Assembly: GCA_963787465.1 (NCBI GenBank)
Contig: CAWBDD010000021.1
Span: 80,598-144,597, forward strand
Source of the DNA: an uncultured Thermoplasmata archaeon
Lineage (GTDB): Archaea; Thermoplasmatota; Thermoplasmata; UBA10834
Direction: 5' to 3'
DNA: 64,000 nucleotides
In this document: one piece after another, positions 5,569-57,796 of the stretch
How the letters are laid out: the number at the start of each line of letters is the position of its first letter
Numbering within the stretch: position 1 is the stretch's first letter
Notes under the pieces: model-generated
Seen by the model: the letters and a program-made list of their open reading frames with translations, nothing else
Told to the model about the DNA's origin: nothing
Databases searched by the model: none
Position numbers and translations under genes: made by a program

Positions 5569-5580
5569 GTCCCCAGGCGC

Positions 5581-37927: not shown

Positions 37928-37940
37928 TGCTTAACGAATG
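37928..37940 (+). promoter_or_regulatory. Conserved motif TGCTTAACGAATG (within GGAGTtGCTTAACGAATG), ~183 nt upstream of the hdrA start. An identical copy lies upstream of the second hdrA operon.
   Basis: Exact 13-mer repeat (16/17 including flanks), at 37928-37940 and 47207-47219. The two copies are nearly the same distance (183 and 181 nt) from the respective start codons. Confidence 0.4.
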
Positions 37941-38122
37941 TCGTTCGCACGGCTGCGCTTTTCGAAATCCTCGCGGCGAAACCTATATTAACGGCGTCTC
38001 AATTATCGGTCAACCGTCGGAATTGATGGACCGAGTGGACGCGCCAGACCAACCACTGGCGACGCCCGGTGGGCACTCGGACCGACGCATCTACGACTTG
38101 CACGAGTACGAGGAGGGGGAAA

Positions 38123-40785: not shown

Positions 40786-41699
40786 GCGCATACGCCTACT
40801 TCTTCGGATGCGTCATCCCCAACAGATATCCAGGCATCGAGTTCGCCGTCAGATGGGTCTGCGGCAAGAACGGGTTCGACCTCGACGTCAAGGACATCAA
40901 GGAGTTCTCCTGCTGCCCCGTCCCTGGCATATTCTACTCCACCGACAAGGACACGTGGCTCGCGCTGGCGACGCGCAACCTCACCCTGGCGCAGGACGAG
41001 AGGAGGGAGATCATGACGGTCTGCAACGGCTGCCTGACCTCGCTCCTCAAGGCCACCGAGTACCTCCAGGACCCGAAGACCATGGGCAAGGTCAACAGGA
41101 CCCTGTCCCAGGTGGGGAGGAAGTACACGGGGATACCGAGGAAGGGCGAGGGGACCCGGCGGGTCTTCGAGCCGGTCAAGGTGCGCCACTACGTCGATGT
41201 CATGAGCAAGGACGTCGGGATGGACGCGGTTGCGGCCAAGGTCACCCATCCCCTGAAGAACATCAGGGTCGCGGTGCACTACGGCTGCCACTACCTGAGG
41301 CCGACCGAGCACCAGACCTTCGACGACCCTAACGACCCGAAGCTGATCGACAGGATGGTCGAGGCATGCGGGGCCACGAGCGTCGAATACGAGGACAGGC
41401 TCGACTGCTGCGGCGCGGGCGGCGGCGTCAGGTCGCACGTGGTCGAGCTGGCCAACTCGCTCACGCAGGACAAGTGCGCGAACATCAGCGCGGCCGGCGC
41501 GGACTGCATAGTCACCGGTTGCCCGTTCTGCCTCCTGCAGTTCGACAACGCGCAGAAGGCGTTCTCGAAGGACGGCATACCCGTCATGCACATCTCGCAG
41601 TTCCAGGCGCTCGCGATGGGGATAGACACCATCTCGCTGGGCTTCGACACGCACCATGTCTCCGTACACTCGTTCCTCAGGAAGCTCAGGGGGGCATAG
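40782..41699 (+). CDS. hdrB: Heterodisulfide reductase subunit B
   Basis: Two CCG domains (..SCCPVPG.., ..CCGAGGG..). Overlaps the hdrC stop. Confidence 0.9.
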   Translation: MSAYAYFFGCVIPNRYPGIEFAVRWVCGKNGFDLDVKDIKEFSCCPVPGIFYSTDKDTWLALATRNLTLAQDERREIMTVCNGCLTSLLKATEYLQDPKTMGKVNRTLSQVGRKYTGIPRKGEGTRRVFEPVKVRHYVDVMSKDVGMDAVAAKVTHPLKNIRVAVHYGCHYLRPTEHQTFDDPNDPKLIDRMVEACGATSVEYEDRLDCCGAGGGVRSHVVELANSLTQDKCANISAAGADCIVTGCPFCLLQFDNAQKAFSKDGIPVMHISQFQALAMGIDTISLGFDTHHVSVHSFLRKLRGA

Positions 41700-42159
41700 T
41701 CTGACCGAGGGGACGAAGGGCATCGACCAGGGGGAGGAGCAGGCTCCTTCCTACGAGCCGAGGATAGTGGCCTTCTGCTGCAACTGGTGCTCCTACGCGG
41801 GGGCGGACCTAGCGGGGACGACGAGGCTGCAGTACCCCACCAACGTCAAGATCATCAGGGTCATGTGCTCGGGCAGGGTCGACCCGGCGTTCGTGCTGAA
41901 GGCGTTCGCCCTCGGGGCCGACGGCGTGATAGTCGCTGGCTGCCACCCGGCGGACTGCCACTACATCAACGGGAACGAGAAGGCCGCCCTTAGGGGCGAC
42001 TTCCTCCAGCAGTTCCTCGAGGACACGGGCATCGAACCCCAGAGGTTCCGGGTCGAGTGGATCGCCGGGTCCGAGGGCTCCAAGTTCGCGTCGGTCATCA
42101 GGCAGATGGTCGCCGACCTCGAGAGGCTCGGCCCCATGGCGCAGGAGGGAGGGCAGTGA
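41656..42159 (+). CDS. mvhD: Methyl-viologen-reducing hydrogenase delta subunit MvhD. The start is ambiguous: ATG 41656 overlaps hdrB by 44 nt; the alternative is GTG 41767.
   Basis: [15 protein letters not shown]...IRVMCSGRVDP...[15 protein letters not shown] is diagnostic of MvhD. Confidence 0.75.
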   Translation: MSPYTRSSGSSGGHSLTEGTKGIDQGEEQAPSYEPRIVAFCCNWCSYAGADLAGTTRLQYPTNVKIIRVMCSGRVDPAFVLKAFALGADGVIVAGCHPADCHYINGNEKAALRGDFLQQFLEDTGIEPQRFRVEWIAGSEGSKFASVIRQMVADLERLGPMAQEGGQ

Positions 42160-45100: not shown

Positions 45101-45194
45101 CCCGAAGCACTTCAAGAGCGAGCAGATACTCACCATGATCGAGGCGTGCCTGCGCAAGGACCTCGATAAGGTGGACGGGGAGGTCAAGGCATGA
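42156..45194 (+). CDS. hdrA: Tandem HdrA-like protein (1,012 aa): an N-terminal HdrA-like FAD/ferredoxin module fused in front of a complete HdrA
   Basis: Two FAD GG motifs: VVGGGPAGMQAALDLA at the N-terminus and VIGGGLAGMTAALTIA at ~aa 600. An internal RIGVFVCHCGINIG Cys-cluster domain. Ferredoxin motifs in both halves. A GTGA start/stop overlap with mvhD. Confidence 0.8.
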   Translation: MTGRTVGAVLVVGGGPAGMQAALDLADSGFKVYLLESGASIGGTMAQLDKTFPTNDCSMCIISPKLVATGKHENITMITHGEIKKVDGKAGDFKVKITRHSRYIEEAKCTGCGVCAEHCPVEGTNAFDRDMAPNRAIYVPFPQAMPLVYTIDRGLCIGCGVCEKFCEAKAIKYDEAPDKEETIEVGAIILAPGYEIFEAKKKVQYGHGTFPNVLTNIEFERMLSASGPTEGHIIRPSDGDVPRRIAFVQCVGSRDAQTPNTYCSSYCCMAALKQAVIGQEHVPGLKTTIFFMDTRAFGKEFEEYLSRAENEYGVRVCRNNRIPKVEEDAETKELILSYIGGADISEERFDMVILSCGARPPDSAGHLAKTLGIKLNKFGFAETDDLTPVETSVPGIFVCGAFAGPKDIPDSVAQASGAAGKADALLADERGKLVSKKEYPKEKDVAGKEPRIGVFVCHCGINIGSVVDVPAVVEYAKTLPGVVFADRNLYTCSGDTQTRIREIIQKHDLNRVVVASCTPRTHEPLFQNTVKEAGLNKYLFEMANIRDQCSWVHRLEPGRATDKAKDLVRMAVAKASTLEPLPQPKIPVTPSAMVIGGGLAGMTAALTIANAGYEVHLVEREKELGGHLRRIHRTLAGVDPQDTFKDLKRQISENKNIKLHLGETPKEVKGYIGNFETTLSGGEKFKHGAVVVATGASEYEPKEYLFGKNPKVMRQTDLQELLASKQFKAKTVVMIQCVGSRNEEHPNCSRICCSTSMANALWIKREHPDTSVYVLYRDIRTFGFAEENYNEAARLGVIFLRYDPEDPPRVTEEGGQLVVEIDETFIEQGVRIRPDYLVLNAAVHPNPDNKELAQLLKVPLNKEGFFLEAHMKLRPVDFATDGIFLCGLAHSPRLIDESVSQALAAAARVNTVLSKEFIEADGMVSVVDQEKCVACGRCEEVCQYGAPRLEEVSPGVVKSRINEALCKGCGSCAVTCCTRAISPKHFKSEQILTMIEACLRKDLDKVDGEVKA

Positions 45195-46786
45195 CCGAGG
45201 AGAGGTTCGAGCCGAGCATAGTGGCCTTCTGCTGCAACTGGTGCTCCTACGCCGGGGCCGACCTGGCGGGCGTGAGCAGGATGCAGTACCCACCGAACGC
45301 GAGGGTCATCAGGGTCATGTGCTCCGGCAGGGTCGAGCCGTACTTCATACTCAGGGCGCTGGAGCTCGGGGCCGACGGTGTCCTGATCGCAGGGTGCCAC
45401 ATAGGCGACTGCCACTACATCTCCGGGAACGTCGAGGCCGAGAAGCGCATGGCCGCGACCAAGGAGGTCCTCGACAGGCTCGGCATAGGCAAGGACCGGA
45501 TGCGCCTGGAGTGGATCTCCGCGTCCGAGGGCCAGAAGTTCGCCCAGACGATGAAGGAGTTCACGGAGCAGATCAGGAAGCTCGGGCCCAACCCGCTGGC
45601 GGGGAAGCTCCCGGAGAAGAAGCCGTCCGCTGACCTCAAGAAGAAGGTCGACCAGCTCATAGAGGACACCGGGGCGTTCGACTGCGTGGAGTGCGGGAAG
45701 TGCACCACGGTCTGCCCTGTGGCCAAGTACGACCCCGACTTCGCCCCCAGGACCATCGTCCTGAAGTCCATGGAGGGGCAGGTGAGCGAACTGTCCAAGG
45801 GCAAGGACATCTGGACGTGCGTCACCTGCGAGCAGTGCAACTCGATGTGCCCGTACAAGGTGGACTACTCGGGCTTCATACGCGGGCTCAGGACCGAGGC
45901 GGCCGCCTGCGACAACGTGCCCGTGTGCTCCCAGGGCGGGCTCATGCAGGGGGTCATGAGGGTCCAGGCGAACGGGTCCTTCAAGCAGGACAGGCTCACG
46001 TGGCTGACCCCTGACCTGAAAGTGGCGGACAAGGGGGACTACTTCCTGTTCACGGGTTGCGCGACATACTTCGACGCCATATTCAGGGACCGCCAGGAGC
46101 TCAAGCTCGCCGACATACCCCGCGCGGCGGTCAAGATCATGAACAGGGCGGGCATCGTCCCGGTCGTCAGCAACGACGAGGTCTGCTGCGGGCACGACCT
46201 CAACTGGACCGGGGACGAGGACGGCATGATGAAGCTCATGAAGAAGAACGTGGACCTGATCAAGGCGTCGGGGGCGAAGAAGGTGGTCTTCCCGTGCCCG
46301 GAGTGCCTCAGGACCTTCAACATGGACTACCAGGACTTCCTGGGCGACTTCGACTTCGAGCTGGTGCACATATCCCAGCTCGTGGACGACCTCCTGAAGG
46401 AGGGGAAGATCAAGCTCAAGAAGGGCGTCTCCAAGGTCACGTTCCAGGACTCCTGCAGGCTCGGGAGGCACATGGGCATCTACGACGAGCCCAGGGCTGC
46501 CATCAGGGGGACCCAGGCCGAGGTGGTCGAGATGGACAACACCAGGGACAAGGCCCTGTGCTGCGGCGTCAGCGCGTGGGCGACCTGCGACGAGGTCTCG
46601 AAGAAGATGCAGGTCGACAGGCTCAAGGAGGCGAAGCGGACCGGCGCCGAGTGCCTGGTGACCGGGTGCTACAAATGCCTGATACACCTTAACTGTGCGC
46701 AGGTCAACAAGACCCAGGTTCCCAAGGAACAGATAGACATACCGATCAAGGATCTGAGCGTGTTCATCGCGGACGCGCTGGAATGA
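45191..46786 (+). CDS. MvhD-HdrC-HdrB triple-domain fusion protein
   Basis: N-terminal MvhD domain ([15 protein letters not shown]...CHIGDCHY). Two ferredoxin motifs (CVECGKCTTVCP, CVTCEQCNSMCP). C-terminal CCG domains (CCGHDL, LCCGVSAW). ATGA overlap with the upstream gene. Confidence 0.8.
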   Translation: MTEERFEPSIVAFCCNWCSYAGADLAGVSRMQYPPNARVIRVMCSGRVEPYFILRALELGADGVLIAGCHIGDCHYISGNVEAEKRMAATKEVLDRLGIGKDRMRLEWISASEGQKFAQTMKEFTEQIRKLGPNPLAGKLPEKKPSADLKKKVDQLIEDTGAFDCVECGKCTTVCPVAKYDPDFAPRTIVLKSMEGQVSELSKGKDIWTCVTCEQCNSMCPYKVDYSGFIRGLRTEAAACDNVPVCSQGGLMQGVMRVQANGSFKQDRLTWLTPDLKVADKGDYFLFTGCATYFDAIFRDRQELKLADIPRAAVKIMNRAGIVPVVSNDEVCCGHDLNWTGDEDGMMKLMKKNVDLIKASGAKKVVFPCPECLRTFNMDYQDFLGDFDFELVHISQLVDDLLKEGKIKLKKGVSKVTFQDSCRLGRHMGIYDEPRAAIRGTQAEVVEMDNTRDKALCCGVSAWATCDEVSKKMQVDRLKEAKRTGAECLVTGCYKCLIHLNCAQVNKTQVPKEQIDIPIKDLSVFIADALE

Positions 46787-47196
46787 CAACTCGAGAAAGT
46801 GATAGGATGACACCGAACAAGGCCCAACAGCAGCCGCCGAAGGCTGACGAGAGGTTCGTGCTGATAGAGCTGTCCTGCAAGGACAAGAAGTGCTCGCCTT
46901 GCACGTACCCGAACTGCCAGAGGTTCGCGACCGAGCAACCCAAGAAGAAGCCGTACGAGACGCGCTTCTCGAGGATGTTCGAGGTCAAGAAGCCCATGAC
47001 CACGCCCGAGGCACCCAGGGAACGCCTGGTGCTCGTGGAGCTGTCCTGCAAGGACAAGAAGTGCTCGCCTTGCACATACCCGAACTGCCAGAGGTTCGCC
47101 AAGGCGACCACCCAGGAGAGGAAGAAGGCGCCTTTCAAGGTGAAGATCACGGAGATCGAGAAGGGCACGGACGTCTCGAAGCTCCTCGGCAAGTAG
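46783..47196 (+). CDS. Small tandem-repeat Cys-cluster protein (2 x C-x4-C-x2-C-x4-C), last gene of the hdr module
   Basis: 137 aa. The 27-aa block ER(F/L)VL(I/V)ELSCKDKKCSPCTYPNCQRFA occurs twice. The underlying 66-nt DNA repeat (46870-46935 versus 47040-47105) differs by one base. The start overlaps the upstream stop (ATGA). Confidence 0.55.
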   Translation: MTTRESDRMTPNKAQQQPPKADERFVLIELSCKDKKCSPCTYPNCQRFATEQPKKKPYETRFSRMFEVKKPMTTPEAPRERLVLVELSCKDKKCSPCTYPNCQRFAKATTQERKKAPFKVKITEIEKGTDVSKLLGK

Positions 47197-47206
47197 CAGG
47201 CTGGAG

Positions 47207-47219
47207 TGCTTAACGAATG
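47207..47219 (+). promoter_or_regulatory. Second copy of the TGCTTAACGAATG motif, 181 nt upstream of the start of the second hdrA-like operon
   Basis: See the entry at 37928-37940. A CATATG-ACGCA-CATATG inverted repeat also lies at 47346-47362. Confidence 0.4.
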
Positions 47220-47399
47220 AGAGCATGGGCGGCAGGGGAGAGCGACCGGAATCGTCGCGTGACCAACGAAACAGATAAAGCGATGAATTGGTTACCGAAG
47301 GGCGCGCCTAGGCCACCGGGCCGGGCCTGCTTGACATCTGCCGGTCATATGACGCACATATGTGAACAGGGAGTATCTAGTAATCGTGGAGGTCTTTGA

Positions 47400-48698
47400 A
47401 TGGAGAAATCGGTCTTGGTTATAGGAGGGGGTGTCGCGGGCATACAGGCCGCGCTCGACCTCGCTGACAAGGGGATAATCGTTCACCTGGTCGAGAAGAC
47501 CCCGAGCATCGGCGGGAGGATGGCGCAGCTGGACAAGACGTTCCCCACGAACGACTGCTCGATCTGCATCCTCGCGCCTAAGATGGCGGACTGCTTCAGC
47601 CACCCGAACACCAACGTCATCACCTACGCCGAGGTCGTCGGTGTCGAAGGGAAGGTAGGGAGCTTCAAGGTCAAGGTGCTCAAGAAGGCCAGGTACGTCG
47701 ACGAGACGAAGTGCACTGGCTGCGGCGAGTGCCTCGAGAAGTGCCCGAGCAAGGTCGTCAACGACTGGGAGCAGGGGCTGACCAACAGGAAGGCCATCTA
47801 TGTCCCGTTCATGCAGGCGGTCCCGAGGGTCATGACCATCGACAAGGACAACTGCCTCATGCTCACGAAGGGCAAGTGCGGGAACTGCAAGAAGGCCTGC
47901 AAGAGGGAGGCCATCAACTACGAGATGAAGGACCAGATCCTGGAGCTCGAGGTCGGCTCCATCATAGTCGCCACCGGGTTCGATGTCTGGAACCCGACGA
48001 CATCCACCGAGTACGGCTACGGCAGGTACCCCAACGTCTTCACGGCGATGGAGTACGAGCGCATGATCAACGCCGCCGGGCCGACCCACGGGCACATCAA
48101 GAGGAGGTCCGACGGCCAGCGCCCGATGAGGATGGCGTTCATCCAGTGCGTCGGGTCGAGGAACCCGACGACCGGCCACCCGTACTGCTGCGGCGTCTGC
48201 TGCATGCACTCCACGAAGGAGTCGATGCTGGCGCGGGAGCACTACGACGACATCGAGTCGACCATATTCTACAAGGACATGAGGGCCTGCTCGAAGGGCT
48301 TCTGGGAGTACGTGGAGCGCGCGAAGCGCGACTACGGTGTCAGGTACATCAACTCGGACGCCACGGTGCAGGAGAACGCTGACAACCACAACCCGATCGT
48401 GGTCTACGACGTGGGCGGAAGACAGCAGTCGGAGGAATTCGACCTGGTCGTCCTCGCCACGACACTCGTCCCCAAGAAGGAGACCCTGGAGCTGGCGAAG
48501 CTGCTGGGAATCAAGGCCGACGAGTTCGGATTCCTGGAGAGCGCCGACAGGATACTGGCGCCAGGGACCACCATCGTGCCCGGCATATACCTGGCCGGAT
48601 ACTGCGCAGGACCGGCGGACATACCGGAGAGCGTCGCTCAGGGCTCGAGCGCGGCGGCCAAGGCTGCCGAGGCAATCGCCCAGGCCGGAGGAGGATGA
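47400..48698 (+). CDS. Truncated HdrA-like flavoprotein (FAD/thioredoxin-reductase-like core plus inserted ferredoxin; lacks the HdrA N- and C-terminal cluster domains)
   Basis: VIGGGVAGIQAALDLA, CTGCGECLEKCP, and the FIQCVGSRN...CCGVCCMHS region. It corresponds to the N-terminal half of the fused 42156-45194 protein. Confidence 0.75.
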   Translation: MEKSVLVIGGGVAGIQAALDLADKGIIVHLVEKTPSIGGRMAQLDKTFPTNDCSICILAPKMADCFSHPNTNVITYAEVVGVEGKVGSFKVKVLKKARYVDETKCTGCGECLEKCPSKVVNDWEQGLTNRKAIYVPFMQAVPRVMTIDKDNCLMLTKGKCGNCKKACKREAINYEMKDQILELEVGSIIVATGFDVWNPTTSTEYGYGRYPNVFTAMEYERMINAAGPTHGHIKRRSDGQRPMRMAFIQCVGSRNPTTGHPYCCGVCCMHSTKESMLAREHYDDIESTIFYKDMRACSKGFWEYVERAKRDYGVRYINSDATVQENADNHNPIVVYDVGGRQQSEEFDLVVLATTLVPKKETLELAKLLGIKADEFGFLESADRILAPGTTIVPGIYLAGYCAGPADIPESVAQGSSAAAKAAEAIAQAGGG

Positions 48699-48702
48699 TC
48701 CG

Positions 48703-50572
48703 ATGACCACCCATGACAAGGCGGAGAAGCCAAGGATCGGAGTGTTCGTCTGCCACTGCGGCTCGAACATCGGCGGGTTCGTCGATGTGCCGTCCGTCGC
48801 GGAGTATGCCAAGACCCTCCCCGACGTCGCGTTCGCGACCGACAACCTGTACACCTGTGCCGAGGACGGCCTCAGCAGCATCAGGGAGGCCATAAGGAAG
48901 CACAACCTCAACAGGGTCATAGTCGCCAGCTGCACGCCCAGGACCCACGCGCCCCTGTTCCAGGCCACCTGCGAGGGGGCCGGGCTGAACAAGTACCTGT
49001 TCACATTCGTGAACATCAGGGAGCACTGCTCCTGGGTCCACATGAAGGAGAAGGACCTGGCCACGAAGAAGGCCAAGGACCTCATCAGGATGGGGGTCGC
49101 GCGGGCGCGCCTGCTCATCCCCCAGGAGGAGGTCAAGGTCGACGTGGAGCCAGTCGCGCTCGTCATCGGCGGAGGAATAAGCGGCATGACCGCGGCGCTG
49201 TCGATGGCGGAGATGGGCTTCCCGGTGCACCTCGTCGAGAAGGAAGGCGAGCTCGGTGGCTTCGTCAAGATACTCAACAACCTGTACGTGACGGACAAGA
49301 CCGCCGCGGACACGATCAAGCCGCTGGTCGACAAGGTGATGAGCGCACAAGAAGATCAAGGTCTACACCGGCTCGACCGTCAAGAGCGTCGAGGGCTTCA
49401 TCGGCAACTACGAGATAGTCATAGGCAAGAAGGGAGCCGACGACGTCAAGGCCAAGGTCGGCACGATCGTCGTGGCCACCGGGGCGCTCGAGTTCATCCC
49501 CGAGGGGCTGTACGGGTACAACCAGTACCCCAACGTCGTGACGCTGACGGAGTTCGAGATGCTCTGCAGGAAGAAGACCCTGCCGAAGCTGAAGAACGTG
49601 GCGTTCATCCAGTGCGTCGGGTCCAGGGGACAGGTCAAGTCGTACTGCTCCAGGATCTGCTGCAATGTCTCGATCAAGAACGCGGTCAACATCGTCGACA
49701 ACTACGACAACATGCTCGGGGCGGCCGAGAAGCTCGGCACGGTGATCGAGAAGGTCCCGGTCGAGAAGAAGGCCACAGACGAGATACTGGAGCGCAGGCG
49801 CAGGAGGCGCGGGCGCGACGCTGGGACCGACGAGGGCGGGGCCGAGGAGGTCAAGCTCGGACCGTCGGAGAAGATCGAGGTCACCGTCTTCAACAGGGAC
49901 GTGATGGCGTACGGCGTCGAGCACGAGCTGCAGTTCAACAAGGCGAGGGAGAAGCGCGTCAAGTTCGTGAGATACACGACAGACCACCTCCCGAAGGTCT
50001 TCATGGAGGGCAACCAGCTGATGCTGACCTACTTCCACGAGACCCTGAAGCTCGAGAGGACGATGCCGGTCGACATGGTCATACTGGCGACGCCGCTAGT
50101 GGCGCAGCCGGACGCGGACCAGCTGTCGAAGCTGCTCAAGGTGCCGCTCGGCCAGGAGGGGTTCTTCCTCGAGGCGCACGTCAAGCTCAGGCCAGTGGAC
50201 TTCGCGACGGACGGCATATACTGCGCCGGCACCTGCCGCGGACCCGCGGACATAACCGAGTGCGCGTACCAGGGGAGCGCGGCGGCCTCGAGGGCCGCCA
50301 TCCCGATGGCGAAGGGGTACGTGCAGGCCGAGGCGATCACCAGCGTGGTCGACGAGACCAAGTGCACCGGGTGCGGGACCTGCATGCAGGTCTGTCCGTA
50401 CGGCGCGCTCAGGAAGAACGACAAGGGCTACGCCGAGGTCATAGTGGCCGCGTGCAAGGGATGCGGCTGCTGCGGGGCGACCTGCCCCGAGGGCGCGATA
50501 ACGATGACGAACTACACCGATGCACAGCTCCTGGCTGAGGCCAGGGCGGCCCTCGAGGAGGGATTGCAGTGA
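48703..50572 (+). CDS. hdrA: HdrA paralog with an apparent +1 frameshift near 49343-49349. As read, it is in two frames: 48703-~49347 and ~49349-50572.
   Basis: N-terminal RIGVFVCHCGSNIGG and VIGGGISGMTAAL. After ...DKVMSA the frame turns to junk, and the authentic HdrA continuation (KKIKVYTGSTVKSVEGFIGNYEIVIGKKG...) is in the +1 frame. The C-terminal ferredoxin motifs are intact. Confidence 0.6.
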
Positions 50573-51372
50573 GTGACCAGGTCAAGAAGGAGCAGAGCGG
50601 GGAGTTCGAGCCCAAGGTCATCGGGTTCCTCTGCAACTGGTGCTCCTACGCAGGGGCGGACCTCTGCGGGGTCAGCAGGTACCAGTACCCGACCAACATC
50701 CGCGCGGTGAGGGTCATGTGCTCGACCAGGATCAGCCCGCACCTCGTCCTCGACCTTTTCAGGGCTGGGGCGGACGGCATCCTGCTCGGTGGCTGCCACA
50801 TAGGCGACTGCCACTACATATCCGGGAACTACTACACCGAGAAGCGCGTCAGGCTCATGAAGAAGCTGCTCGAGGAGAGCGGCCTGGAGCCGGAGCGCCT
50901 CAGGCTGGAGTGGGTCTCGGCCTCCGAGGGCGAGAAGTTCTCGAAGGTCGTGAGCGAGTTCACGGAGCACGTGAGGAAGCTCGGCCCCAGCAAGGTCAAG
51001 AGCGACCCGGTCCAGAGGGACAAGGTCGCGGCCGCGGACGCCGCAGGCGAGACCTTCAGGCTGAGGGCGCTGGTCGGCAAGGAGCTCAACCTTGTCCAGA
51101 AGGGGAACGTGTACGACAACAAGCTGGACCCGGTCGAGCTGCAGAAGATCATCGACCACGCGACCGAGGAGGAGTTCGAGCGCGCGCTCATACTGGAGCT
51201 GAGCCGCTCGAAGCCCAGGTCGGTCAAGGAGCTCGGACAGATCATGGACGTGCCGACGGACAAGGTCCTGAGGCACATAGTGGCGCTCCGTCAGAAGAAC
51301 ATGATAACGATGGAGCACCCGGACGGGTTCACACCCACATACAAGACCATAGAGATCGGAGGTGAGCACTGA
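50569..51372 (+). CDS. MvhD domain protein fused to a C-terminal winged-helix-like domain
   Basis: N-terminal [14 protein letters not shown]...CHIGDCHY (MvhD). The C-terminal ~90 aa (ALILELSRSKPRSVKELGQIMDVPTDKVLRHIVALRQKNMI) is homologous to the free-standing protein at 54867-55257. GTGA overlap with the upstream stop. Confidence 0.75.
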   Translation: MSDQVKKEQSGEFEPKVIGFLCNWCSYAGADLCGVSRYQYPTNIRAVRVMCSTRISPHLVLDLFRAGADGILLGGCHIGDCHYISGNYYTEKRVRLMKKLLEESGLEPERLRLEWVSASEGEKFSKVVSEFTEHVRKLGPSKVKSDPVQRDKVAAADAAGETFRLRALVGKELNLVQKGNVYDNKLDPVELQKIIDHATEEEFERALILELSRSKPRSVKELGQIMDVPTDKVLRHIVALRQKNMITMEHPDGFTPTYKTIEIGGEH

Positions 51373-54300
51373 TGGCTACCACGGACAAGATCGGGGCAGT
51401 AATGGTCGTCGGTGGCGGCATCTCGGGGATGCAGTCGGCCCTGGACCTAGCGGACCAGGGGTTCAAGGTCTACCTGATCGAGAAGCAGCCGAGCATCGGC
51501 GGCGTCATGGCCCAGCTCGACAAGACCTTCCCGACCAACGATTGCTCCATGTGCATCATGGCCCCGAAGCTGGTCGCCACCGGCAGGCACCACAACATAC
51601 AGCTGATCACGAACGCCGAGATAGCGATAGTGGATGGCCAGGCAGGCAACTTCACCGTCACGGTGAAGCAGCGCGCCTTCAGGGTCGACACGACCAAGTG
51701 CACGGGCTGCGGCAGCTGCGCGCAGAAGTGCCCGATCGAGACCGCCGACGAGTACAACGAGGGCACGAAGGTGCGCAAGGCGATATTCGTGCGCTACCCG
51801 CAGGCGGTCCCGCTGGTGTACAGCATCGACCCTGAGAAGTGCATCGGTTGCGGCATCTGCGCCGAGGAGTGCAAGGCCAAGGCCGTCGCGTACGACCAGA
51901 AGGAGAGGGTCATCGAGATCAACGTCGGATCGATCATCGTCTCGCCCGGCTTCGAGGAGTTCAACGCGAGGCTGAAGAGCGAGTACGGGTACGGCGTCTA
52001 CCAGAACGTCGTGACGAGCATCGAGTTCGAGAGGATGCTCAGCGCGACCGGGCCGTACTTCGGGTCCGTGCTCAGGCCCTCGGACGGCGACATACCGGAG
52101 AAGATAGCCTTCATCCAGTGCGTCGGCTCCAGGGACGAGCATGTCGGCAACGAGTACTGCTCCAGCGTGTGCTGCATGTACTCCATCAAGGAGGCCGTCA
52201 TCGCGAAGGAGCACGGCGGGAACATCAAGCCCACCATCTTCTTCATGGACATGAGGGCCTTCGGCAAGGAGTTCGACGAGTACTACAACCGCGCCCAGAA
52301 GGAGTACGGGATCAGGTTCGTCAGGTCCAGGATCGCATCCGTGGTCGAGGACCCGAAGACCAAGAACCTGATGCTCAAGTACACCGGAGAGGGCGAGCCC
52401 AAGGAGGAGGCGTTCGACCTCGTCGTGCTGGCGGTCGGGCTGAGGCCCGCTGCGGACGCCGAGGCGCTGAGCCGGATCATGAAGTTCAGGCTCAACGACG
52501 ACGGCTTCTGCCAGACGGGGACCTTCGCCCCGGTCGAGACATCGCGTCCGGGCGTCTACGTCAGCGGCGCGTTCTCCGCGCCCAAGGACATACCGATGAC
52601 CGTCGCAGAGGCGAGCGGCGCGGCCGCGAAGGCCGCCTCCGACATCGCCGGCGCCAGGGGCACGCTCGTCACGAAGAAGGAGTACCCCAAGGAACTCGAC
52701 GTCACGGGCCAGGAGCCCAGGATCGGGGTCTTCGTCTGCCACTGCGGCATCAACATAGGCGGGGTCGTGAAGGTCCCGGAGGTCGCGGAGTACGCGAAGA
52801 CGCTGCCGAACGTGGTCTACGCCGAGCAGAACCTGTACACCTGCTCCCAGGACGCGCAGGAGCGCATCAAGGAGAAGGTCAAGGAGCACAAGCTCAACAG
52901 GGTCGTGGTCGCGAGCTGCACGCCCAGGACGCACGAGCCCCTGTTCCAGAACACCATCAGGGAGGCGGGACTGAACCCGTACCTCTTCGAGATGGCGAAC
53001 ATCAGGGACCAGTGCTCGTGGATACACATGCACGAGCCGAAGGCCGCCACGAAGAAGTCCAAGGACCTCGTGCGCATGGCCGTCGCGAAGTCGAGGCTCC
53101 TGGAGCCGCTCGAGAACCTCGAGATCAACGTCAACCAGGCCGCCATGGTCATTGGCGGCGGGCTGAGCGGGATGACCGCGGCCCTGGAGCTCGCGAAGCA
53201 GGGCTTCCAGGTCCACCTGGTCGAGAAGGAGAAGCAGCTCGGGGGCAACCTCGGAAAGCTGCACTACCTGCCGACGGGCGACGACCCGAAGGCGCACCTC
53301 GACGCGATGGTGAAGGAGGTCATGTCCAACCCGCGGATCAAGACGCACCTCGGGACGACCGTGAAGACCATCGAGGGGTACGTCGGGAACTTCAAGACCG
53401 ACCTCGTGAACGGCCAGAAGGTCGAGCACGGCGCCGTCATCGTGGCCATCGGCGGCCAGGAGTACAAGCCGGAGGGCGAGTACCTCTACGGGAAGAACAA
53501 GGGCGTCATGACCCTCCTCGAGTACAAGGACAAGTTGTCGAAGGGCGAGGTCAAGGGCGGGACGACCGTGTTCATCCAGTGCGTCGGGTCCAGGGAGGAC
53601 AAGCACCCGAACTGCTCCCGCGTCTGCTGCACCGGCACGATGACCGCGGCGATCAAGACCAAGGAGAAGGACCCAGCGTCCACGATATACGTGCTCTACC
53701 GCGACATCAGGACCTACGGCTTCAGGGAGAAGTTCTACAAGGAGGCCAGCCGGAAGGGCGTGACCTTCATCAGGTTCGAGGACGGCACCAAGCCGAAGGT
53801 GGAGGAGAAGGGCGGGAAGCTCGAGGTGACCGTGAAGGACGAGGACACCGGCAAGGATGTCATCCTCAGGCCGGACCACCTGGTCCTCGCTTCGGGGACG
53901 AGGCCGTCCCACGATATCGAGACGCTCGCGCCGATGCTGAAGGTGCCCGTCACGCAAGGAGGGATTCTTCCTCGAGGCGCACATGAAGCTCCGGCCGGTC
54001 GAGTTCGCCACCGAGGGCGTGTACCTGGCGGGCCTCGCGCACGGACCCAAGTTCGTGGACGAGAGCATCGGGCAGGCGCTCGCGGCGGTGTCGCGCGCCA
54101 TGACCGTCCTGTCGAAGACCACCCTCGAGGCGGAGGGCATAGTCGCGAGCATAGAGGAGACCCTCTGTGACGGCTGCGGCATATGCGTCCCGACCTGCGA
54201 GTACAAGGCCCTCGATGTCCTCCCGGACAAGAAGGACCCGAAGAAGAAGATCGTCGAGGTCAACGTCGGCCTGTGCAAGGGCTGCGGCGCCTGCGTGGGC

Positions 54301-54410
54301 GCCTGCCCGTCCGGCGCCCTGGACACAGAAGGGCTTCAAGGACGAGCAGATCTACGCGATGATCGATGCCGCGCTCGAGGACGACGCGCAAGAGACAGGA
54401 GGTGAAGTAA
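51372..54410 (+). CDS. hdrA: HdrA paralog (third module). It is complete in its first ~860 aa, but the C-terminal part requires at least two +1 corrections (~53958 and ~54328). It is possibly continuous with the downstream MvhD.
   Basis: VVGGGISGMQSALDLA, RIGVFVCHCGINIGG and a second GG motif MVIGGGLSGMTAAL (a tandem-type HdrA). After ...MLKVPVTQ the track frame becomes P/R/G junk, while EGFFLEAHMKLRPV... continues in +1. After ...ACPSGALDT it shifts again, to KGFKDEQIYAMIDAALEDD.... Confidence 0.6.
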
Positions 54411-54866
54411 TGAGCACTGAGGCGCACGGGCACAAGCAATGGACATGCGACTGGGGACGGGTTCGAGCCGAAGATACTCGTCTTCTGCTGCAACTGGTGC
54501 TCCTACGCCGGGGCCGACCTGGCAGGGGTCAGCAGGCTGCAGATGCCGCCGCACTTCAGGGTGATCAGGGTCATGTGCTCCGCGAGGGTCGACCCCGAGT
54601 TCGTCCTGCGGGCGTTCCAGAAGGGCGCGGACGGCGTGCTCGTCGCTGGGCTGCCACCCGGCGGACTGCCACTACATCGGAGGGAACTACAGGACCCGCA
54701 GGAGGATCGCCCTGCTGAGGATGCTGCTGCAGCAGTTCGGGTTCGACCCGGGCAGGCTGAAGCTGGAGTGGGTCTCGGCCGGGGAGGGCGAGAAGTTCCA
54801 GAAGACCATCACCGAGTTCACGAACACTATCATGGAGCTCGGACCGTCTCCGATGAGAGGTGGTGA
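54410..54866 (+). CDS. mvhD: MvhD (third module), interrupted by two apparent +1 frameshifts at G-runs (~54453 and ~54648)
   Basis: [15 protein letters not shown] | [65 protein letters not shown] | [31 protein letters not shown]...MRGGE*, reconstructed by removing one G at each site. Confidence 0.55.
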
Positions 54867-55257
54867 ATGAGGATGCCGGCGAACGAGGCCAGGATCAGGG
54901 CGGCGCTCAGGACCGTGGAAGGGGAGCGCGTCAGGTGGCTCCTGGGCAAGAAGGGGCCACTGACCACGATCGGGCAACGTGTTCGGCGAGACCATCACCG
55001 ACGCGAGGTACAGCTTCATACTGCAGAAGGCGGCAGGGGTCGAGCTGGACCGGAACCTCCTTCTCATCGAGATGGAGCGGGGACCGAGGACCGTGCACGA
55101 GCTGCACGACGCCACGAGGCTCCCGAAACCCGAGATCGTGAAGCACATCATCGCCCTGAAGAAGTGGAGGCTGGTCGAGCAGGTGGGCATGAAGGACCGG
55201 TCGCCGCAGTACATGGCCGTAGCGCGCAAGGCATCGGATGAGAGAGAGGTGAGCTGA
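54867..55257 (+). CDS. Free-standing winged-helix-like protein homologous to the C-terminal domain of the MvhD fusion at 50569-51372. It contains an apparent +1 frameshift at ~54972-54976.
   Basis: MRMPANEARIRAALRTVEGERVRWLLGKKGPLTTIG | NVFGETITDARYSFILQKAAGVELDRNLLLIEMERGPRTVHELHDATRLPKPEIVKHIIALKKWRLVEQVG... It starts directly after the mvhD stop. Confidence 0.45.
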
Positions 55258-55259
55258 AC

Positions 55260-56276
55260 ATGGCTGACAAGATCAAGATCGCACAGTACTGGGGAGCAGG
55301 ATGCGGCGGGTGCGACGTCGCGCTCCTGGACATCGACGCCAAGATACTGGACATCCACGCGATAGCGGAGGTCGTCTTCTGGCCGATCGGCTTCGACGGG
55401 AAGCTCCACGAGATCGAGGCGATGCCCGACAAGAGCATCACCGTATCGTTCTACAACGGCGCGATAAGGAACTCCGAGAACGAGCACGTCGCGAAGGTGC
55501 TGAGGCAGAAGTCCGTCATAATGATCGGGTTCGGCTCGTGCGCCTGCTTCGGCGGCACGCCCGGCCTGGCCAACGTGACGAACAGGAAGGAGGTCTTCCA
55601 GACCGTCTACAAGGACACGCAGTCGACGGACAACCCGAACTTCGTGACGCCCCAGACCCACACCAAGACCAAGGACGGCGAGCTGGAGCTGCCGGAGTTC
55701 TACGACACGGTCAAGATGCTCGACGAGGTCGTCGACGTCGACTACTTCATGCCCGGCTGCCCGCCGACGGTCAACCTGATCGCGCTGGCGGTCGACGCCG
55801 TCGTGAAGCACGTCAAGGAGGGCGCGCCGCTGCCCCCGAAGGGCACGATCATAGCCTCCGACAAGACCCTGTGCGACGAATGCAAGAGGGAGAGGGTCGA
55901 GAAGAACAGGAGGATCGAGAGGATCTACCAGGCCTACGAGATCACGCCCGACCCGAAGAAGTGCCTCCTGGACCAGGGGATCATATGCATAGGGCCAGCG
56001 ACGCGCGCCGGATGCGGCGCGATGTGCCCGAACGCGCAGATGCCCTGCAGGGGCTGCATGGGCCCGACGAGGGCCGTCACGGACCAGGGCGCGAGCATGC
56101 TCTCCGCGGTCTCGTCGCTGCTGAACATCACGGATTCGGAGTCAAAGCTAAGTGAGGAGCAGATAATGGAGCTCATGATGCAGGTCAAGGACCCGCTCGG
56201 GACCTTCTACGCTTTCACGCTGCCGAAGTCCCCGATCAAGCGCGTCGTGACCGAGAGAGGCAAGAGGAAGGTGTGA
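55260..56276 (+). CDS. mvhG: [NiFe] hydrogenase small subunit MvhG (F420-non-reducing hydrogenase)
   Basis: N-terminal WGAGCGGC cluster motif, plus medial and distal Fe-S cluster Cys patterns (GSCACFGG, CxxC...CRGC). Confidence 0.85.
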   Translation: MADKIKIAQYWGAGCGGCDVALLDIDAKILDIHAIAEVVFWPIGFDGKLHEIEAMPDKSITVSFYNGAIRNSENEHVAKVLRQKSVIMIGFGSCACFGGTPGLANVTNRKEVFQTVYKDTQSTDNPNFVTPQTHTKTKDGELELPEFYDTVKMLDEVVDVDYFMPGCPPTVNLIALAVDAVVKHVKEGAPLPPKGTIIASDKTLCDECKRERVEKNRRIERIYQAYEITPDPKKCLLDQGIICIGPATRAGCGAMCPNAQMPCRGCMGPTRAVTDQGASMLSAVSSLLNITDSESKLSEEQIMELMMQVKDPLGTFYAFTLPKSPIKRVVTERGKRKV

Positions 56277-57796
56277 TCACCGTGGCTGGACCTATCATCA
56301 ACGACACCACTGTCAAGACAAAGGAGAGGAAGATCACCATCGACCCGATCACGAGGCTCGAGGGCCACGGCAAGATCGAGATATTCCTGGACGAGGCCGG
56401 CGATGTCGCCGACGCGTACCTCCAGGTGCCCGAGCTCAGGGGCTTCGAGAGGTTCTGCATAGGCAGGCACGTGCAGGAGCTGCCGGTCCTGACCAACAGG
56501 CTCTGCGGCGTCTGCCCGGCGGCGCACCACCTGGCGTCGACGAAGGCCCTGGACGCGGTCTTCAACGCCGAGCCACCGCCCACGGCGAAGAAGCTGAGGG
56601 AGCTCTTCTACATGGGCCAGTACACGCACAGCCACATCGCGCACTTCTACGCCCTCGCGGCGCCGGACTTCGTGCTCGGGCCGTCCGCCCCGGCCAACAA
56701 GAGGAACGTCCTCGGCGTGGTAGACGCCGTCGGCGTGCCGATCGGGGCCGAGGTCATAAAGCACAGGTCTTACGGTCAGAAGGTGCAGGAGATCGTGGGC
56801 GGCAGGGCGACACACCCCGTGTTCGGCCTCCCCGGAGGCGTGAGCAAGCAGATCAGCGAGGAGGAGCGCGCCCAGATGGAGGAGATGGCCAAGAGCTGCG
56901 TCGAATTCGGAAAGTTCACGGTCAAGCTCTTCCACGACGTCGTCCTCGCGAACAAGGACTACCTGGGACTCATACTCAACCAGGACGCGTACTACCTGGA
57001 GACCTACTACATGGGCATGGTCGACAAGAACAACAAGAGCAACTTCTACGACGGCGATATCCGCGTGGTCGACCAGACAGGTAAGGAGTTCGTGAGATTC
57101 AAGCCGAGCCAGTACCTCGACGTCATCTCAGAGCACGTCGAGCCCTGGACATACATGAAGATGCCCTTCCTGAAGAAGGTCGGCTGGAAGGGGTTCGTCA
57201 CCGGACCGTCGAGCGGCATATACAGGGTCGGGCCCCTGGCCAGGATCAACGTCTGCACCGGGTACACGACACCGCTGGCGCAGGCCGAGTACGAGGCCTT
57301 CAGGAAGACCATGAAGGACCTGGGAGTGACAGGGCCGGTGCACCACACCCTGGCGTTCCACTGGGCGAGGGTCATCGAACTGCAGCACGCGGCGGAGCGC
57401 ATGCTCGAGCTCGCGAGCGACAAGACCATCACGAGCGCCGACATCAGGGGCAAGTTCAACCCGCCCACGGAGGGCGTCGGCATCGTCGAGGCCCCGAGGG
57501 GCACGCTCATCCACCACTACGCCTCGGACAAGGACGGCATCTGCACCAAGATCAACATGGTCGTCGCCACGACCAACAACTACGCGGCCATCAACACCAG
57601 CGTGAAGCAGGCGGCGAAGGCGCTGATCAAGGGCGGCATGGTGTCCCAGGGCCTCCTGAACAAGGTCGAGATGGCCTTCAGGTGCTACGACCCGTGCAAC
57701 TCCTGTGGCACGCACGCGCTGAACGGCGGGCCCGCGCTCGAGGTCACCGTCAAGAGGAAGGACGGCACCGTCGTCGAGAGGCAGAGAAACTTCTGA
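56273..57796 (+). CDS. mvhA: [NiFe] hydrogenase large subunit MvhA
   Basis: N-terminal RLCGVCP and C-terminal DPCNSCGTH Ni-Fe ligand motifs. GTG start overlapping the mvhG stop. Confidence 0.9.
   Translation: MITVAGPIINDTTVKTKERKITIDPITRLEGHGKIEIFLDEAGDVADAYLQVPELRGFERFCIGRHVQELPVLTNRLCGVCPAAHHLASTKALDAVFNAEPPPTAKKLRELFYMGQYTHSHIAHFYALAAPDFVLGPSAPANKRNVLGVVDAVGVPIGAEVIKHRSYGQKVQEIVGGRATHPVFGLPGGVSKQISEEERAQMEEMAKSCVEFGKFTVKLFHDVVLANKDYLGLILNQDAYYLETYYMGMVDKNNKSNFYDGDIRVVDQTGKEFVRFKPSQYLDVISEHVEPWTYMKMPFLKKVGWKGFVTGPSSGIYRVGPLARINVCTGYTTPLAQAEYEAFRKTMKDLGVTGPVHHTLAFHWARVIELQHAAERMLELASDKTITSADIRGKFNPPTEGVGIVEAPRGTLIHHYASDKDGICTKINMVVATTNNYAAINTSVKQAAKALIKGGMVSQGLLNKVEMAFRCYDPCNSCGTHALNGGPALEVTVKRKDGTVVERQRNF

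What the first reader, a model, noticed from the sequence alone, without database searches (positions are those of the whole stretch)
50569..55257. Fusion/fission of a winged-helix domain with MvhD between paralogous modules
In module B the wHTH domain (ALILELSRSKPRSVKELGQIMDVPTDKVLRHIVALRQKNMI...) is the C-terminal half of an MvhD protein (50569-51372). In module C a homologous wHTH ORF (LLLIEMERGPRTVHELHDATRLPKPEIVKHIIALKKWRLVEQVG) begins at the very next codon after the mvhD stop (TGA 54864-54866, ATG 54867). A DNA-binding-like domain tethered to an electron-transfer subunit suggests a redox-sensing regulator built into the Hdr/Mvh complex, or a non-DNA-binding structural use of the fold.
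Basis: partly seen in the sequence, partly recalled or inferred. Interest (0 to 1): 0.6.

Follow-up and report, generated by a model that had tools for sequence, protein, structure and literature searches.

The report
Winged-helix docking module on MvhD adaptors
A small winged-helix module that looks like a DNA-binding regulator is a widespread add-on of the MvhD electron-relay subunit in multi-module heterodisulfide-reductase-like complexes, fused to MvhD in one module of this archaeal gene cluster and encoded as a separate gene in the next, and it most likely serves as a protein docking piece, not a gene regulator.

Summary
Module B (50569-51372) encodes an intact 267-aa MvhD with a C-terminal unit of about 120 aa. 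Module C encodes the same unit as a separate 129-aa gene (54867-55257).

The true mvhD-C stop is TGA 54868-54870, overlapping ATG 54867 (ATGA). It is not TGA 54864-66. The window carries about eight single-base insertions between 49.3 and 55.0 kb that break these genes. Contigs 97-98% identical have them intact and still split.

The unit has N-terminal helices with RLRWLxGK and GNVYGE motifs, then an ArsR-type winged helix without Cys and without the ArsR dimerisation helix.

It forms a large unnamed family: 286 clusters at 50% identity, across at least ten archaeal and bacterial phyla. Of 53 genomic copies, 42 are fused to MvhD, 5 directly follow an MvhD domain, and 43 of 50 are followed by an HdrA-like gene, mostly tandem HdrA. 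It also occurs inside larger redox polypeptides.

The closest precedent is BamF of class II benzoyl-CoA reductase, an extended MvhD adaptor whose winged helix docks BamI next to the fused-HdrA BamE (2026 preprint). I could not test homology to BamF.

Best reading: a structural docking module. The regulator reading is weakly supported. Interest is moderate.

The parts
50569..51372 (+). Module B gene: MvhD fused to the winged-helix unit (267 aa). The GTG start overlaps the stop of the upstream hdrA part (GTGA). The stop overlaps the ATG of the next tandem hdrA by 1 nt.
   Evidence: Intact ORF. FlpD domain at aa 17-139. AF2 pLDDT 87, pTM 0.86.
50569..51003 (+). MvhD ([2Fe-2S] adaptor) domain of the module B protein (aa 1-145).
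   Evidence: Pfam FlpD E 2e-53. 58% identity and TM 0.90 to 5odc_D/5odh_D MvhD.
51007..51129 (+). N-terminal helical part of the unit (aa ~147-187), carrying the family motifs FRLRALVGKE and GNVYDN (consensus RLRWLxGK / GNVYGE).
   Evidence: Family alignment. pLDDT 92-97 in the fused model against ~60 in the separate model.
51130..51354 (+). ArsR-type winged helix-turn-helix of module B (aa ~188-262: H188-214, H219-226, H230-242, hairpin 246-260).
   Evidence: secondary structure. Foldseek hits NolR, CzrA, SmtB, HlyU. Weak Pfam HTH_20 and HTH_5 hits.
51372..54409 (+). Module C tandem (fused-dimer) HdrA-like gene, ~1011 aa in relatives. Here it is broken by three 1-nt insertions (~53960, ~54330, ~54386).
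   Evidence: Intact 1011-1015 aa homologues.
54410..54870 (+). Module C short mvhD (152 aa once two inserted bases at ~54431 and ~54648 are removed). True stop is TGA 54868-54870.
54867..55257 (+). Module C separate winged-helix unit gene (129 aa once the inserted base at ~54968 is removed). The ATG overlaps the mvhD stop (ATGA), a GAGGTG Shine-Dalgarno-like site lies 6 nt upstream, and mvhG starts 3 nt after its stop.
   Evidence: (P0013: 99% identity, 129 aa).
55260..57796 (+). mvhG (55260-56276) and mvhA (56273-57796), the [NiFe] hydrogenase subunits directly downstream of the separate unit.
   Evidence: Pfam Oxidored_q6 and NiFeSe_Hases in syntenic loci.
47400..50572 (+). Module B tandem HdrA, split into two genes (47400-48698 and ~48713-50572, the second with one 1-nt insertion at ~49340), directly upstream of the MvhD-unit fusion.

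Best explanation
The ~115-125-aa unit is an accessory docking module of MvhD-type [2Fe-2S] adaptor subunits in multi-module HdrA / tandem-HdrA electron-bifurcating complexes. It is not a transcription factor.

Its N-terminal helices (RLRWLxGK and GNVYGE motifs) are inferred to pack onto the MvhD domain. Its C-terminal ArsR-type winged helix is inferred to be a surface that clamps the MvhD relay to a neighbouring module: a tandem HdrA, a hydrogenase or an NAD(P)H input module. That would fix the geometry of electron transfer between modules.

In module B the unit is covalently fused to MvhD. In module C of this Thermoplasmata lineage the same unit is a separate, translationally coupled gene between mvhD and mvhG and would bind non-covalently. 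Because the fused form predominates across phyla, the separate gene is probably a fission product.

Shown: homology, fold, fusion and split, conserved synteny, distribution.
Inferred: the packing on MvhD, the docking role and the partner.
For: 1. The unit is a distinct family. A profile search finds 286 clusters (50% identity) at E<=1e-3 and 139 at <=1e-10, matched over profile positions ~5-117 and not only over the wHTH.
2. 74 of the top 150 carry an MvhD domain directly N-terminal.
3. In 48 species-representative genomes from Bathyarchaeia, Hadarchaeota, Thermoplasmata, Methanomassiliicoccales, Odinarchaeota, Archaeoglobi, Chloroflexi, Bacillota, Thermodesulfobacteriota, Syntrophobacterales and WOR-3, 42 of 53 units are fused to MvhD and 5 follow an ORF ending in MvhD. 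43 of 50 are followed at once by an HdrA-like gene, 36 of them a long tandem HdrA.
4. The unit also sits inside larger redox polypeptides: HdrA-MvhD-unit (P0140, 810 aa), MvhD-unit-Fer4-GltD/NfnB-like (P0252, 744 aa) and Fer4-MvhD-unit.
5. The fused window protein is predicted as one compact body (pTM 0.86), with the unit's N-part at pLDDT 92-97.
6. The most conserved columns are R.RW..GK, GNVYGE, E(F/Y).R and G.(T/S)P.Y in the wing, not the exposed start of the recognition helix.
7. There is no Cys in either window unit and no helix after the wing.
8. The genes are translationally coupled in mid-operon (ATGA, GTGA, Shine-Dalgarno-like sites).
9. The same order, tandem hdrA - mvhD - unit - mvhG - mvhA, is seen in six further Thermoplasmata contig sets. 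Three short near-identical contigs show the mvhD - unit core, with a short downstream ORF in two of them.
10. Precedent: in the cryo-EM structure of class II benzoyl-CoA reductase, BamF is an MvhD homologue more than 100 aa longer than MvhD. Its winged helix contacts BamI and links the input module to BamE, a fused HdrA dimer (bioRxiv 10.64898/2026.04.10.717634). The window's large HdrA is likewise a permuted tandem HdrA with two QCVGSR and two GGGxAG motifs.
11. General precedent: DsrD, a small winged-helix protein in the dsr operon, activates DsrAB and does not act through DNA binding (PMC8794893).
Against: - No direct evidence of any protein-protein contact. The tools give no complex prediction and no coordinates.
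- The higher pLDDT of the N-part in the fused model could reflect the more diverse alignment used.
- Homology of the unit to the BamF extension could not be tested, because no BamF sequence was available and its PDB entries are not in the local copy. [quoted passage not shown]
- The separate module C protein and its clade are distinctly basic (window pI 10.05, net +7; clade median +5), which would also suit nucleic-acid binding.
- The wHTH core is truly homologous to DNA-binding ArsR-type domains.
- The separate unit is absent from some otherwise similar mvh clusters (L039 and the Bathyarchaeia loci), so it is not essential for MvhD-MvhGA docking.
Confidence: 0.62

Rival explanations
1. The separate module C protein, and possibly the whole family, is a true ArsR-like transcription factor that autoregulates the hdr/mvh cluster. 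Its position next to mvhD merely reflects co-regulation.
For: - Pfam HTH_5 at the gathering threshold for the repaired module C protein (22.1 against 22.0 bits).
- Profile and fold similarity to ArsR, SmtB, HlyU and PH1932.
- A basic protein, pI ~10.
- Public pipelines name relatives 'ArsR family regulator'.
- An exact 13-mer, TGCTTAACGAATG, occurs in both main intergenic regions upstream of hdr modules (0.42 expected).
Against: - The gene lies in mid-operon with an ATGA overlap, not at an operon edge.
- The N-terminal half shares the MvhD-associated motifs of the fused forms.
- Most family members are covalent parts of redox subunits, some of them internal.
- The ArsR alpha5 dimerisation helix, metal or thiol sites and any Cys are all absent.
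- NCBIfam HTH_metalloreg scores 17-18 bits against a cutoff of 55.
- The 13-mer is absent from all 58 related loci fetched by that call and is only 9/13 conserved in the closest relative.
Confidence: 0.17
2. Dual function. The winged helix is a subunit of the complex that is released, or exposes its DNA-binding face, depending on the redox state of the MvhD [2Fe-2S] cluster or on assembly state. Enzyme status would then feed back on transcription, in the manner of BirA or PutA.
For: - A true DNA-binding-type fold tethered to an Fe-S domain.
- The free, basic paralogue in module C.
- Conserved coupling of the two genes.
Against: - No sensing residues in the unit.
- Fused units are on average slightly acidic (median net -1), and fused and separate forms do not differ in charge across the family.
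- The unit is internal in some polypeptides.
- No conserved operator was found.
Confidence: 0.1
3. The apparent fission in module C is an artefact of frameshift errors in this assembly. The real gene would be a fused mvhD-unit as in module B.
For: The window has many single-base insertions exactly in this region.
Against: - Three near-identical contigs without these insertions still have two genes with a 4-nt overlap.
- More than 145 clusters of separate 119-130-aa proteins exist.
- Six further contig sets show separate genes, in different frames in L004 and L006 where I checked the coordinates.
Confidence: 0.02

Closest known systems
BamF, the MvhD-homologous adaptor of class II benzoyl-CoA reductase (BamBCDEFGHI) of Geobacter metallireducens (cryo-EM, bioRxiv 10.64898/2026.04.10.717634)
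   Same: - An MvhD-type [2Fe-2S] adaptor more than 100 aa longer than methanogen MvhD.
- The extension contains a winged helix-turn-helix used as a protein interface.
- It is partnered with a fused (tandem, permuted) HdrA, BamE.
- It couples two electron-transfer or bifurcation modules.
   Different: - Sequence homology of the extensions is untested.
- BamF has Sec19 where the window protein has Cys.
- BamF's partner is the NADH/ferredoxin module BamGHI, whereas here the neighbours are tandem HdrA and the [NiFe] hydrogenase MvhGA.
- The preprint describes two Rossmann-fold domains, whereas the unit's N-part is modelled as helical.
- No split version has been reported for BamF.
Canonical MvhD / VhuD of methanogen Mvh-Hdr, Fdh-Hdr and Elp-Hdr complexes (PDB 5ODC, 7BKB, 8RVU)
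   Same: The N-terminal 140 aa are a bona fide MvhD (58% identity to 5odc_D, TM 0.90). The same Cys motifs are present (CNWC, GCHxGDCHY).
   Different: All solved MvhD chains are 129-141 aa and lack any C-terminal unit.
ArsR/SmtB family of winged-helix metalloregulators (Pfam HTH_5, PF01022)
   Same: A homologous wHTH core (H1-H2-H3-hairpin). Profile E ~1e-6 to PH1932 and HlyU. Top Foldseek matches.
   Different: - No alpha5 dimerisation helix, no metal or thiol sensing sites, no Cys.
- An extra N-terminal region with family-specific motifs.
- Usually fused to a redox subunit.
- Below curated cutoffs, except for a borderline hit for the module C protein.
DsrD, the small winged-helix protein of the dsrABD operon (PMC8794893)
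   Same: A small wHTH protein encoded inside a redox-enzyme operon whose demonstrated role is to activate the enzyme (DsrAB). From my own knowledge, it was long suspected of binding DNA.
   Different: No detectable sequence relationship was tested or claimed. DsrD is ~78 aa, has no N-terminal extension and has no MvhD association.

Membership tests
MvhD / FlpD (PF02662) | FlpD domain above the Pfam gathering score | tested here: met
   179.8 bits against a cutoff of 22.3 for the module B protein, and 189.8 bits for the repaired module C MvhD.
MvhD / FlpD (PF02662) | Fold and sequence match to solved MvhD subunits | tested here: met
   phmmer E 3e-54 to 5odc_D. Foldseek TM 0.90, rmsd 1.7 A.
ArsR/SmtB transcription regulators | HTH_5 (PF01022) or NCBIfam HTH_metalloreg above curated cutoff | tested here: inconclusive
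   Module C: HTH_5 22.1 against 22.0 bits (borderline). Module B: HTH_5 12.0 and HTH_20 16.1, both below cutoff. NCBIfam HTH_metalloreg 17-18 against 55 bits.
ArsR/SmtB transcription regulators | C-terminal alpha5 helix forming the homodimer interface with alpha1 | tested here: not met
   Both AF2 models end right after the beta-hairpin. Residues after it are disordered or absent.
ArsR/SmtB transcription regulators | Metal or thiol sensing site (alpha3N or alpha5 Cys/His motifs) | tested here: not met
   Neither window unit contains a Cys, read directly from the sequences.
ArsR/SmtB transcription regulators | Sequence-specific binding to an inverted-repeat operator | not testable with these tools
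   There is only an unconserved 13-mer direct repeat.
BamF-type extended MvhD adaptor (class II benzoyl-CoA reductase) | MvhD-homologous domain plus a C-terminal extension of more than 100 aa | tested here: met
   267 aa against 129-141 aa for all solved MvhD chains.
BamF-type extended MvhD adaptor (class II benzoyl-CoA reductase) | Winged helix-turn-helix within the extension | tested here: met
   AF2 pLDDT >90 with ArsR-family Foldseek hits.
BamF-type extended MvhD adaptor (class II benzoyl-CoA reductase) | Partner is a fused HdrA dimer (BamE-like) | tested here: met
   The adjacent ~1010-aa HdrA-like protein has two HdrA units, two QCVGSR motifs and two GGGxAG motifs. This adjacency holds in 43 of 50 genomic copies.
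BamF-type extended MvhD adaptor (class II benzoyl-CoA reductase) | Sequence homology of the extension to BamF itself | not testable with these tools
   No BamF sequence could be retrieved. PDB 29QY, 29RC and 29RN are not in the local copies. afdb50 was unavailable.
BamF-type extended MvhD adaptor (class II benzoyl-CoA reductase) | Selenocysteine near the [2Fe-2S] cluster (Sec19) and bamB/GHI neighbours | tested here: not met
   The window has Cys in CNWC. No AOR- or NuoEF-type genes lie in the cluster. Some Desulfobacterota relatives have an in-frame TGA, but at a different Cys.

The most novel reading that the evidence does not exclude
The free, strongly basic module C unit is a moonlighting subunit. 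When not bound to MvhD or the hydrogenase-Hdr complex, because of a redox-dependent or assembly-dependent release, it binds DNA and tunes transcription of the hdr/mvh/hyp supercluster. The winged helix on an electron-bifurcating complex would then be both a docking piece and a status reporter.
Probability: 0.1. Interest if true: 0.75.

Novelty: new variant of a known kind. Interest (0 to 1): 0.55.

Why it matters
Clusters with several HdrA and MvhD paralogues are common in uncultured Thermoplasmata, Bathyarchaeia, Chloroflexi, Bacillota and sulfate reducers, and what they do is, to my knowledge, still largely unknown.

The unit marks a specific, conserved pairing of an extended MvhD adaptor with a tandem HdrA. 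That is the same design principle just seen by cryo-EM in class II benzoyl-CoA reductase. If the analogy holds, 'coupled bifurcation modules' joined by a winged-helix adaptor are a general and widespread architecture with varied inputs: H2 through MvhGA, or NAD(P)H through GltD-, Flox- or NuoF-like modules.

Practically, hundreds of these proteins are annotated as ArsR-type regulators, as generic winged-helix proteins, or as fragments, especially where a probable selenocysteine TGA splits the gene. No Pfam-A or NCBIfam model matched the unit as a whole. A dedicated family model would correct that.

Tried and rejected
- **Readthrough or programmed fusion in module C.** Rejected. The genes are in different frames, and relatives have 2-5-nt spacers or a 4-nt overlap.
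- **Fission as an assembly artefact.** Rejected.
- **Finding BamF sequences or bam clusters.**
  - A profile of Desulfobacterota-type units (A4) returned mostly 150-167-aa fragments downstream of the in-frame TGA (probable Sec).
  - Their contexts are tandem-HdrA plus Flox-like clusters, not bam.
  - Pfam on the neighbours in L044 and L042 gave a histidine kinase with a sigma54 regulator, and a GltD-like protein.
  - A NuoF motif scan hit only L012.
  - Papers on BamF gave no sequence.
  - afdb50 was not available.
- **Genome scan with the broad alignment A2.** It failed for lack of a conserved stretch. The narrower A3 worked, but it samples only members with the exact GNVYGEK motif.
- **Charge as a discriminator between fused and separate units.** No family-wide difference.
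- **The 13-mer as an operator.** Present twice in the window but not conserved in relatives.
- **Rate comparison.** The unit evolves faster than MvhD, about as fast as or slightly faster than MvhG and MvhA, and slower than HycI. This is not decisive.
Full report
**What is in the window**

The region is part of a long plus-strand supercluster:
- hypB, hypF, hypA and hypD at 33-37.7 kb
- canonical hdrA, hdrC and hdrB at 38069-41699
- a short mvhD at 41656-42159
- a ~1010-aa tandem HdrA ending at 45194
- an MvhD-HdrC/B fusion at 45191-46786
- a Cys-rich 137-aa protein at 46783-47196
- a tandem HdrA split into two genes, 47400-48698 and ~48713-50572
- the MvhD-unit fusion at 50569-51372
- a second tandem HdrA at 51372-54409
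- a short mvhD at 54410-54870
- the separate unit at 54867-55257
- mvhG, mvhA and a HycI-type protease

The closest public relatives are Thermoplasmata / Thermoplasmatota MAGs.

**Checking the observation**

The module B ORF is intact. It is a bona fide MvhD (Pfam FlpD E 2e-53; 58% identical to the MvhD of PDB 5ODC) with an additional ~120 aa.

Module C is misread in the finding. A three-frame translation shows repeated +1 frame steps. I aligned the window to three metagenome contigs that are 97-98% identical and carry intact genes (MvhD 152 aa, unit 129 aa). The window has six single-base insertions in 1.2 kb. Comparison with the proteins of locus L006 places two more at ~49340 and ~53960.

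The public record has the same defect. The 92-aa truncated ORF exists as a database protein on a 334-kb contig.

With the insertions removed, mvhD-C ends at TGA 54868-70, overlapping ATG 54867-69 of the unit gene. A GAGGTG Shine-Dalgarno-like site lies 6 nt upstream. TGA 54864-66 is in the wrong frame. Readthrough could not fuse the two proteins.

The two units share 28% identity (E 3e-13). MvhD-C joined to unit-C is colinear with the module B protein, with only a 4-aa gap in the linker.

**The split is real and conserved**

The repaired 129-aa protein matches P0013 at 99% over its full length. It has more than 145 cluster relatives of 119-130 aa.

In six further contig sets the order is tandem hdrA - mvhD (151-158 aa) - unit (119-129 aa) - mvhG - mvhA. 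These are L004/L005, L006/L007, L022, L037, L059 and L060. The short contigs L001-L003 cover only the mvhD - unit core of that order. A long (254-277 aa) MvhD lies upstream of the tandem hdrA in the same loci.

**What the unit is**

AlphaFold on the separate protein gives helices 5-14, 18-26, 45-71, 76-83 and 87-99, and a hairpin at 103-117. The wHTH part has pLDDT above 90 and the N-part about 60.

The fused window protein gives pLDDT 87 and pTM 0.86, with the unit's N-part at 92-97. Foldseek against the PDB matches the N half to MvhD chains and the C half to ArsR-family proteins (SmtB, CzrA, NolR, HlyU, SqrR). No solved chain covers both halves.

A family profile hits PH1932 (E 7e-7) and HlyU (2e-6) over profile positions ~41-112.

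It is therefore an ArsR-type winged helix. It lacks the alpha5 dimerisation helix, has no Cys, and falls below or at the curated cutoffs.

The N-terminal ~55 residues are family-specific, with the motifs RLRWLxGK and GNVYGE. These are the most conserved columns, together with E(F/Y)xR and a G-x-(T/S)-P-x-Y wing motif.

**Distribution and context**

An exhaustive profile search over 1.84 billion representatives found 286 clusters at E<=1e-3 and 139 at <=1e-10. Of the top 150, 74 have an MvhD domain directly N-terminal. Many others are separate proteins of 100-135 aa or fragments.

A scan of one genome per species, limited to members with the exact GNVYGEK motif, returned 48 loci. They come from Bathyarchaeia, Hadarchaeota, Thermoplasmata, Methanomassiliicoccales, Odinarchaeota, Archaeoglobi, Chloroflexi, Bacillota, Thermodesulfobacteriota, Syntrophobacterales and WOR-3.

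I annotated these loci with HMMs built from the window's own proteins. Results for the 53 units:

| Feature | Count |
|---|---|
| Fused to MvhD | 42 of 53 |
| Follows an ORF ending in an MvhD domain (e.g. Chloroflexi tandem HdrA-MvhD fusions) | 5 of 53 |
| Followed at once by an HdrA-like gene | 43 of 50 |
| ...of which a long tandem HdrA | 36 |

The window's large HdrA is a permuted tandem of two HdrA units, with two QCVGSR motifs and two GGGxAG motifs.

The unit also occurs inside bigger polypeptides:
- HdrA-MvhD-unit (P0140)
- MvhD-unit-Fer4-GltD/NfnB-like (P0252)
- Fer4-MvhD-unit
- two units plus a ferredoxin domain (P0154)

In Desulfobacterota the gene has an in-frame TGA at the first Cys of GCHxGxCHY, probably selenocysteine. 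Gene callers therefore report only 150-171-aa or 88-aa 'ArsR' or 'wHTH' fragments. One example is the cultured Desulfovermiculus halophilus, where the cluster also holds Flox-like genes.

**Mechanism**

The pattern is that of a domain belonging to the enzyme. It is a module that always follows MvhD, whether fused or separate, is mostly followed by a tandem HdrA, is sometimes internal to a redox polypeptide, and is translationally coupled.

The only paper in the searchable library that links MvhD with a winged helix as a feature of the protein is the April 2026 preprint on class II benzoyl-CoA reductase. According to it:
- BamF is an MvhD-homologous adaptor more than 100 aa longer than MvhD.
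- BamF carries a winged helix-turn-helix that interfaces with BamI.
- BamF links the BamGHI input module to BamE.
- BamE is a fused HdrA dimer.

The window's MvhD-unit next to a tandem HdrA reproduces these features.

I therefore propose that the unit's N-part packs on MvhD and that its winged helix docks a neighbouring module. In module B the unit is covalent. In module C it is a separate subunit. DsrD is a general precedent for an operon-encoded winged-helix protein that acts on its enzyme.

These steps are inference. No interface was computed or observed, and homology to the BamF extension could not be tested.

**Rivals**

A true regulator role is possible mainly for the separate module C protein. 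That protein is unusually basic (pI 10.05, net +7; clade median +5). The fused module B unit is acidic (pI 5.8), and the family median pI is 6.3, with no difference between fused and separate forms.

An exact 13-mer occurs in both intergenic regions upstream of hdr modules. It is absent from all 58 related loci fetched by that call and only partly conserved in the closest one.

Evolutionary rates are not decisive. Identity to the window protein in four related loci:

| Protein | L004 | L006 | L022 | L037 |
|---|---|---|---|---|
| Unit-C | 74% | 74% | 56% | 56% |
| MvhD-C | 89% | 90% | 84% | 85% |
| MvhG | 87% | 87% | 64% | 73% |
| MvhA | 85% | 90% | 69% | 73% |

HycI, which could be compared only in L004 and L006, is 59% and 56% identical.

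**Novelty and verdict**

The fold and its use on an MvhD homologue have one very recent precedent. What I did not find described in the searchable library:
- the family itself, which no Pfam-A or NCBIfam model matched as a whole
- its breadth across archaea and bacteria
- its near-obligate pairing with tandem HdrA
- the split form in Thermoplasmata

I rate this a new variant of a known kind, of moderate interest.

Noticed in passing
window ~49338-49346, ~53956-53969, ~54323-54339, ~54386, ~54431, ~54648, ~54968, 55257: Eight single-base insertions, all +1 frame steps with no deletions, cluster in 5.7 kb. They break hdrA-B (second part), tandem hdrA-C, mvhD-C and the unit gene. Near-identical contigs are intact, and the public record carries the same defect. 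Likely assembly or polishing errors, but real pseudogenisation is not excluded.
   Followed up: partly
window 41656-42159, 45191-46786, 50569-51372, 54410-54870: Four MvhD paralogues in four architectures within 13 kb: short; fused to an HdrC/HdrB-like module (531 aa); fused to the winged-helix unit; and short with the unit as a separate gene. MvhD behaves as a plug domain fused to different partners.
   Followed up: partly
window 46783-47196: A 137-aa Cys-rich protein with two internal repeats (…LIELSCKDKKCSPCTYPNCQRFA…). It is conserved directly after the MvhD-HdrCB gene(s) in Thermoplasmata and Methanomassiliicoccales loci (L006, L013, L022, L037). In L020 it is present but its upstream gene is off the contig. 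It has no Pfam family above cutoff. It may be a thiol/disulfide carrier or substrate of the HdrB-like CCG domains.
   Followed up: partly
window 37928-37940 and 47207-47219; 47331-47366: The exact 13-mer TGCTTAACGAATG occurs in both main intergenic regions upstream of hdrA modules (0.42 expected by chance). It is not conserved in related loci. A palindrome around GTCATATGAC lies ~40 nt upstream of hdrA-B.
   Followed up: partly
L044 5545-6336, L047 5521-6297, L048 303-1073, L058 9767-10516: Desulfobacterota MvhD-unit genes have an in-frame TGA replacing the first Cys of the G-C-H-x-G-x-C-H-Y motif, probably selenocysteine. Gene callers split them, and RefSeq of Desulfovermiculus halophilus lists only an 88-aa 'winged helix-turn-helix domain-containing protein'.
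   Followed up: partly
window 47400-48698 and ~48713-50572: The tandem HdrA of module B is split into two genes (432 aa and ~620 aa). The same split is conserved in relatives, while modules A and C have the two halves fused (~1010 aa).
   Followed up: partly
proteins P0252, P0140, P0154; loci L042, L012: The unit occurs internally in MvhD-unit-Fer4-GltD/NfnB-like polypeptides, at the end of HdrA-MvhD-unit proteins, and duplicated with a ferredoxin domain. In L042 a GltD-like gene, and in L012 a NuoF-like gene, lie near MvhD-unit. This suggests NAD(P)H input modules as alternative partners.
   Followed up: partly
L046, L049, L051-L055 (Archaeoglobi), ~5400-6300 in each locus: An Archaeoglobi variant: a ~285-aa protein with a ferredoxin-like N-terminus, a degenerate MvhD segment (below the detection threshold in L049 and L051) and the unit, directly upstream of a tandem HdrA and a short MvhD.
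   Followed up: no
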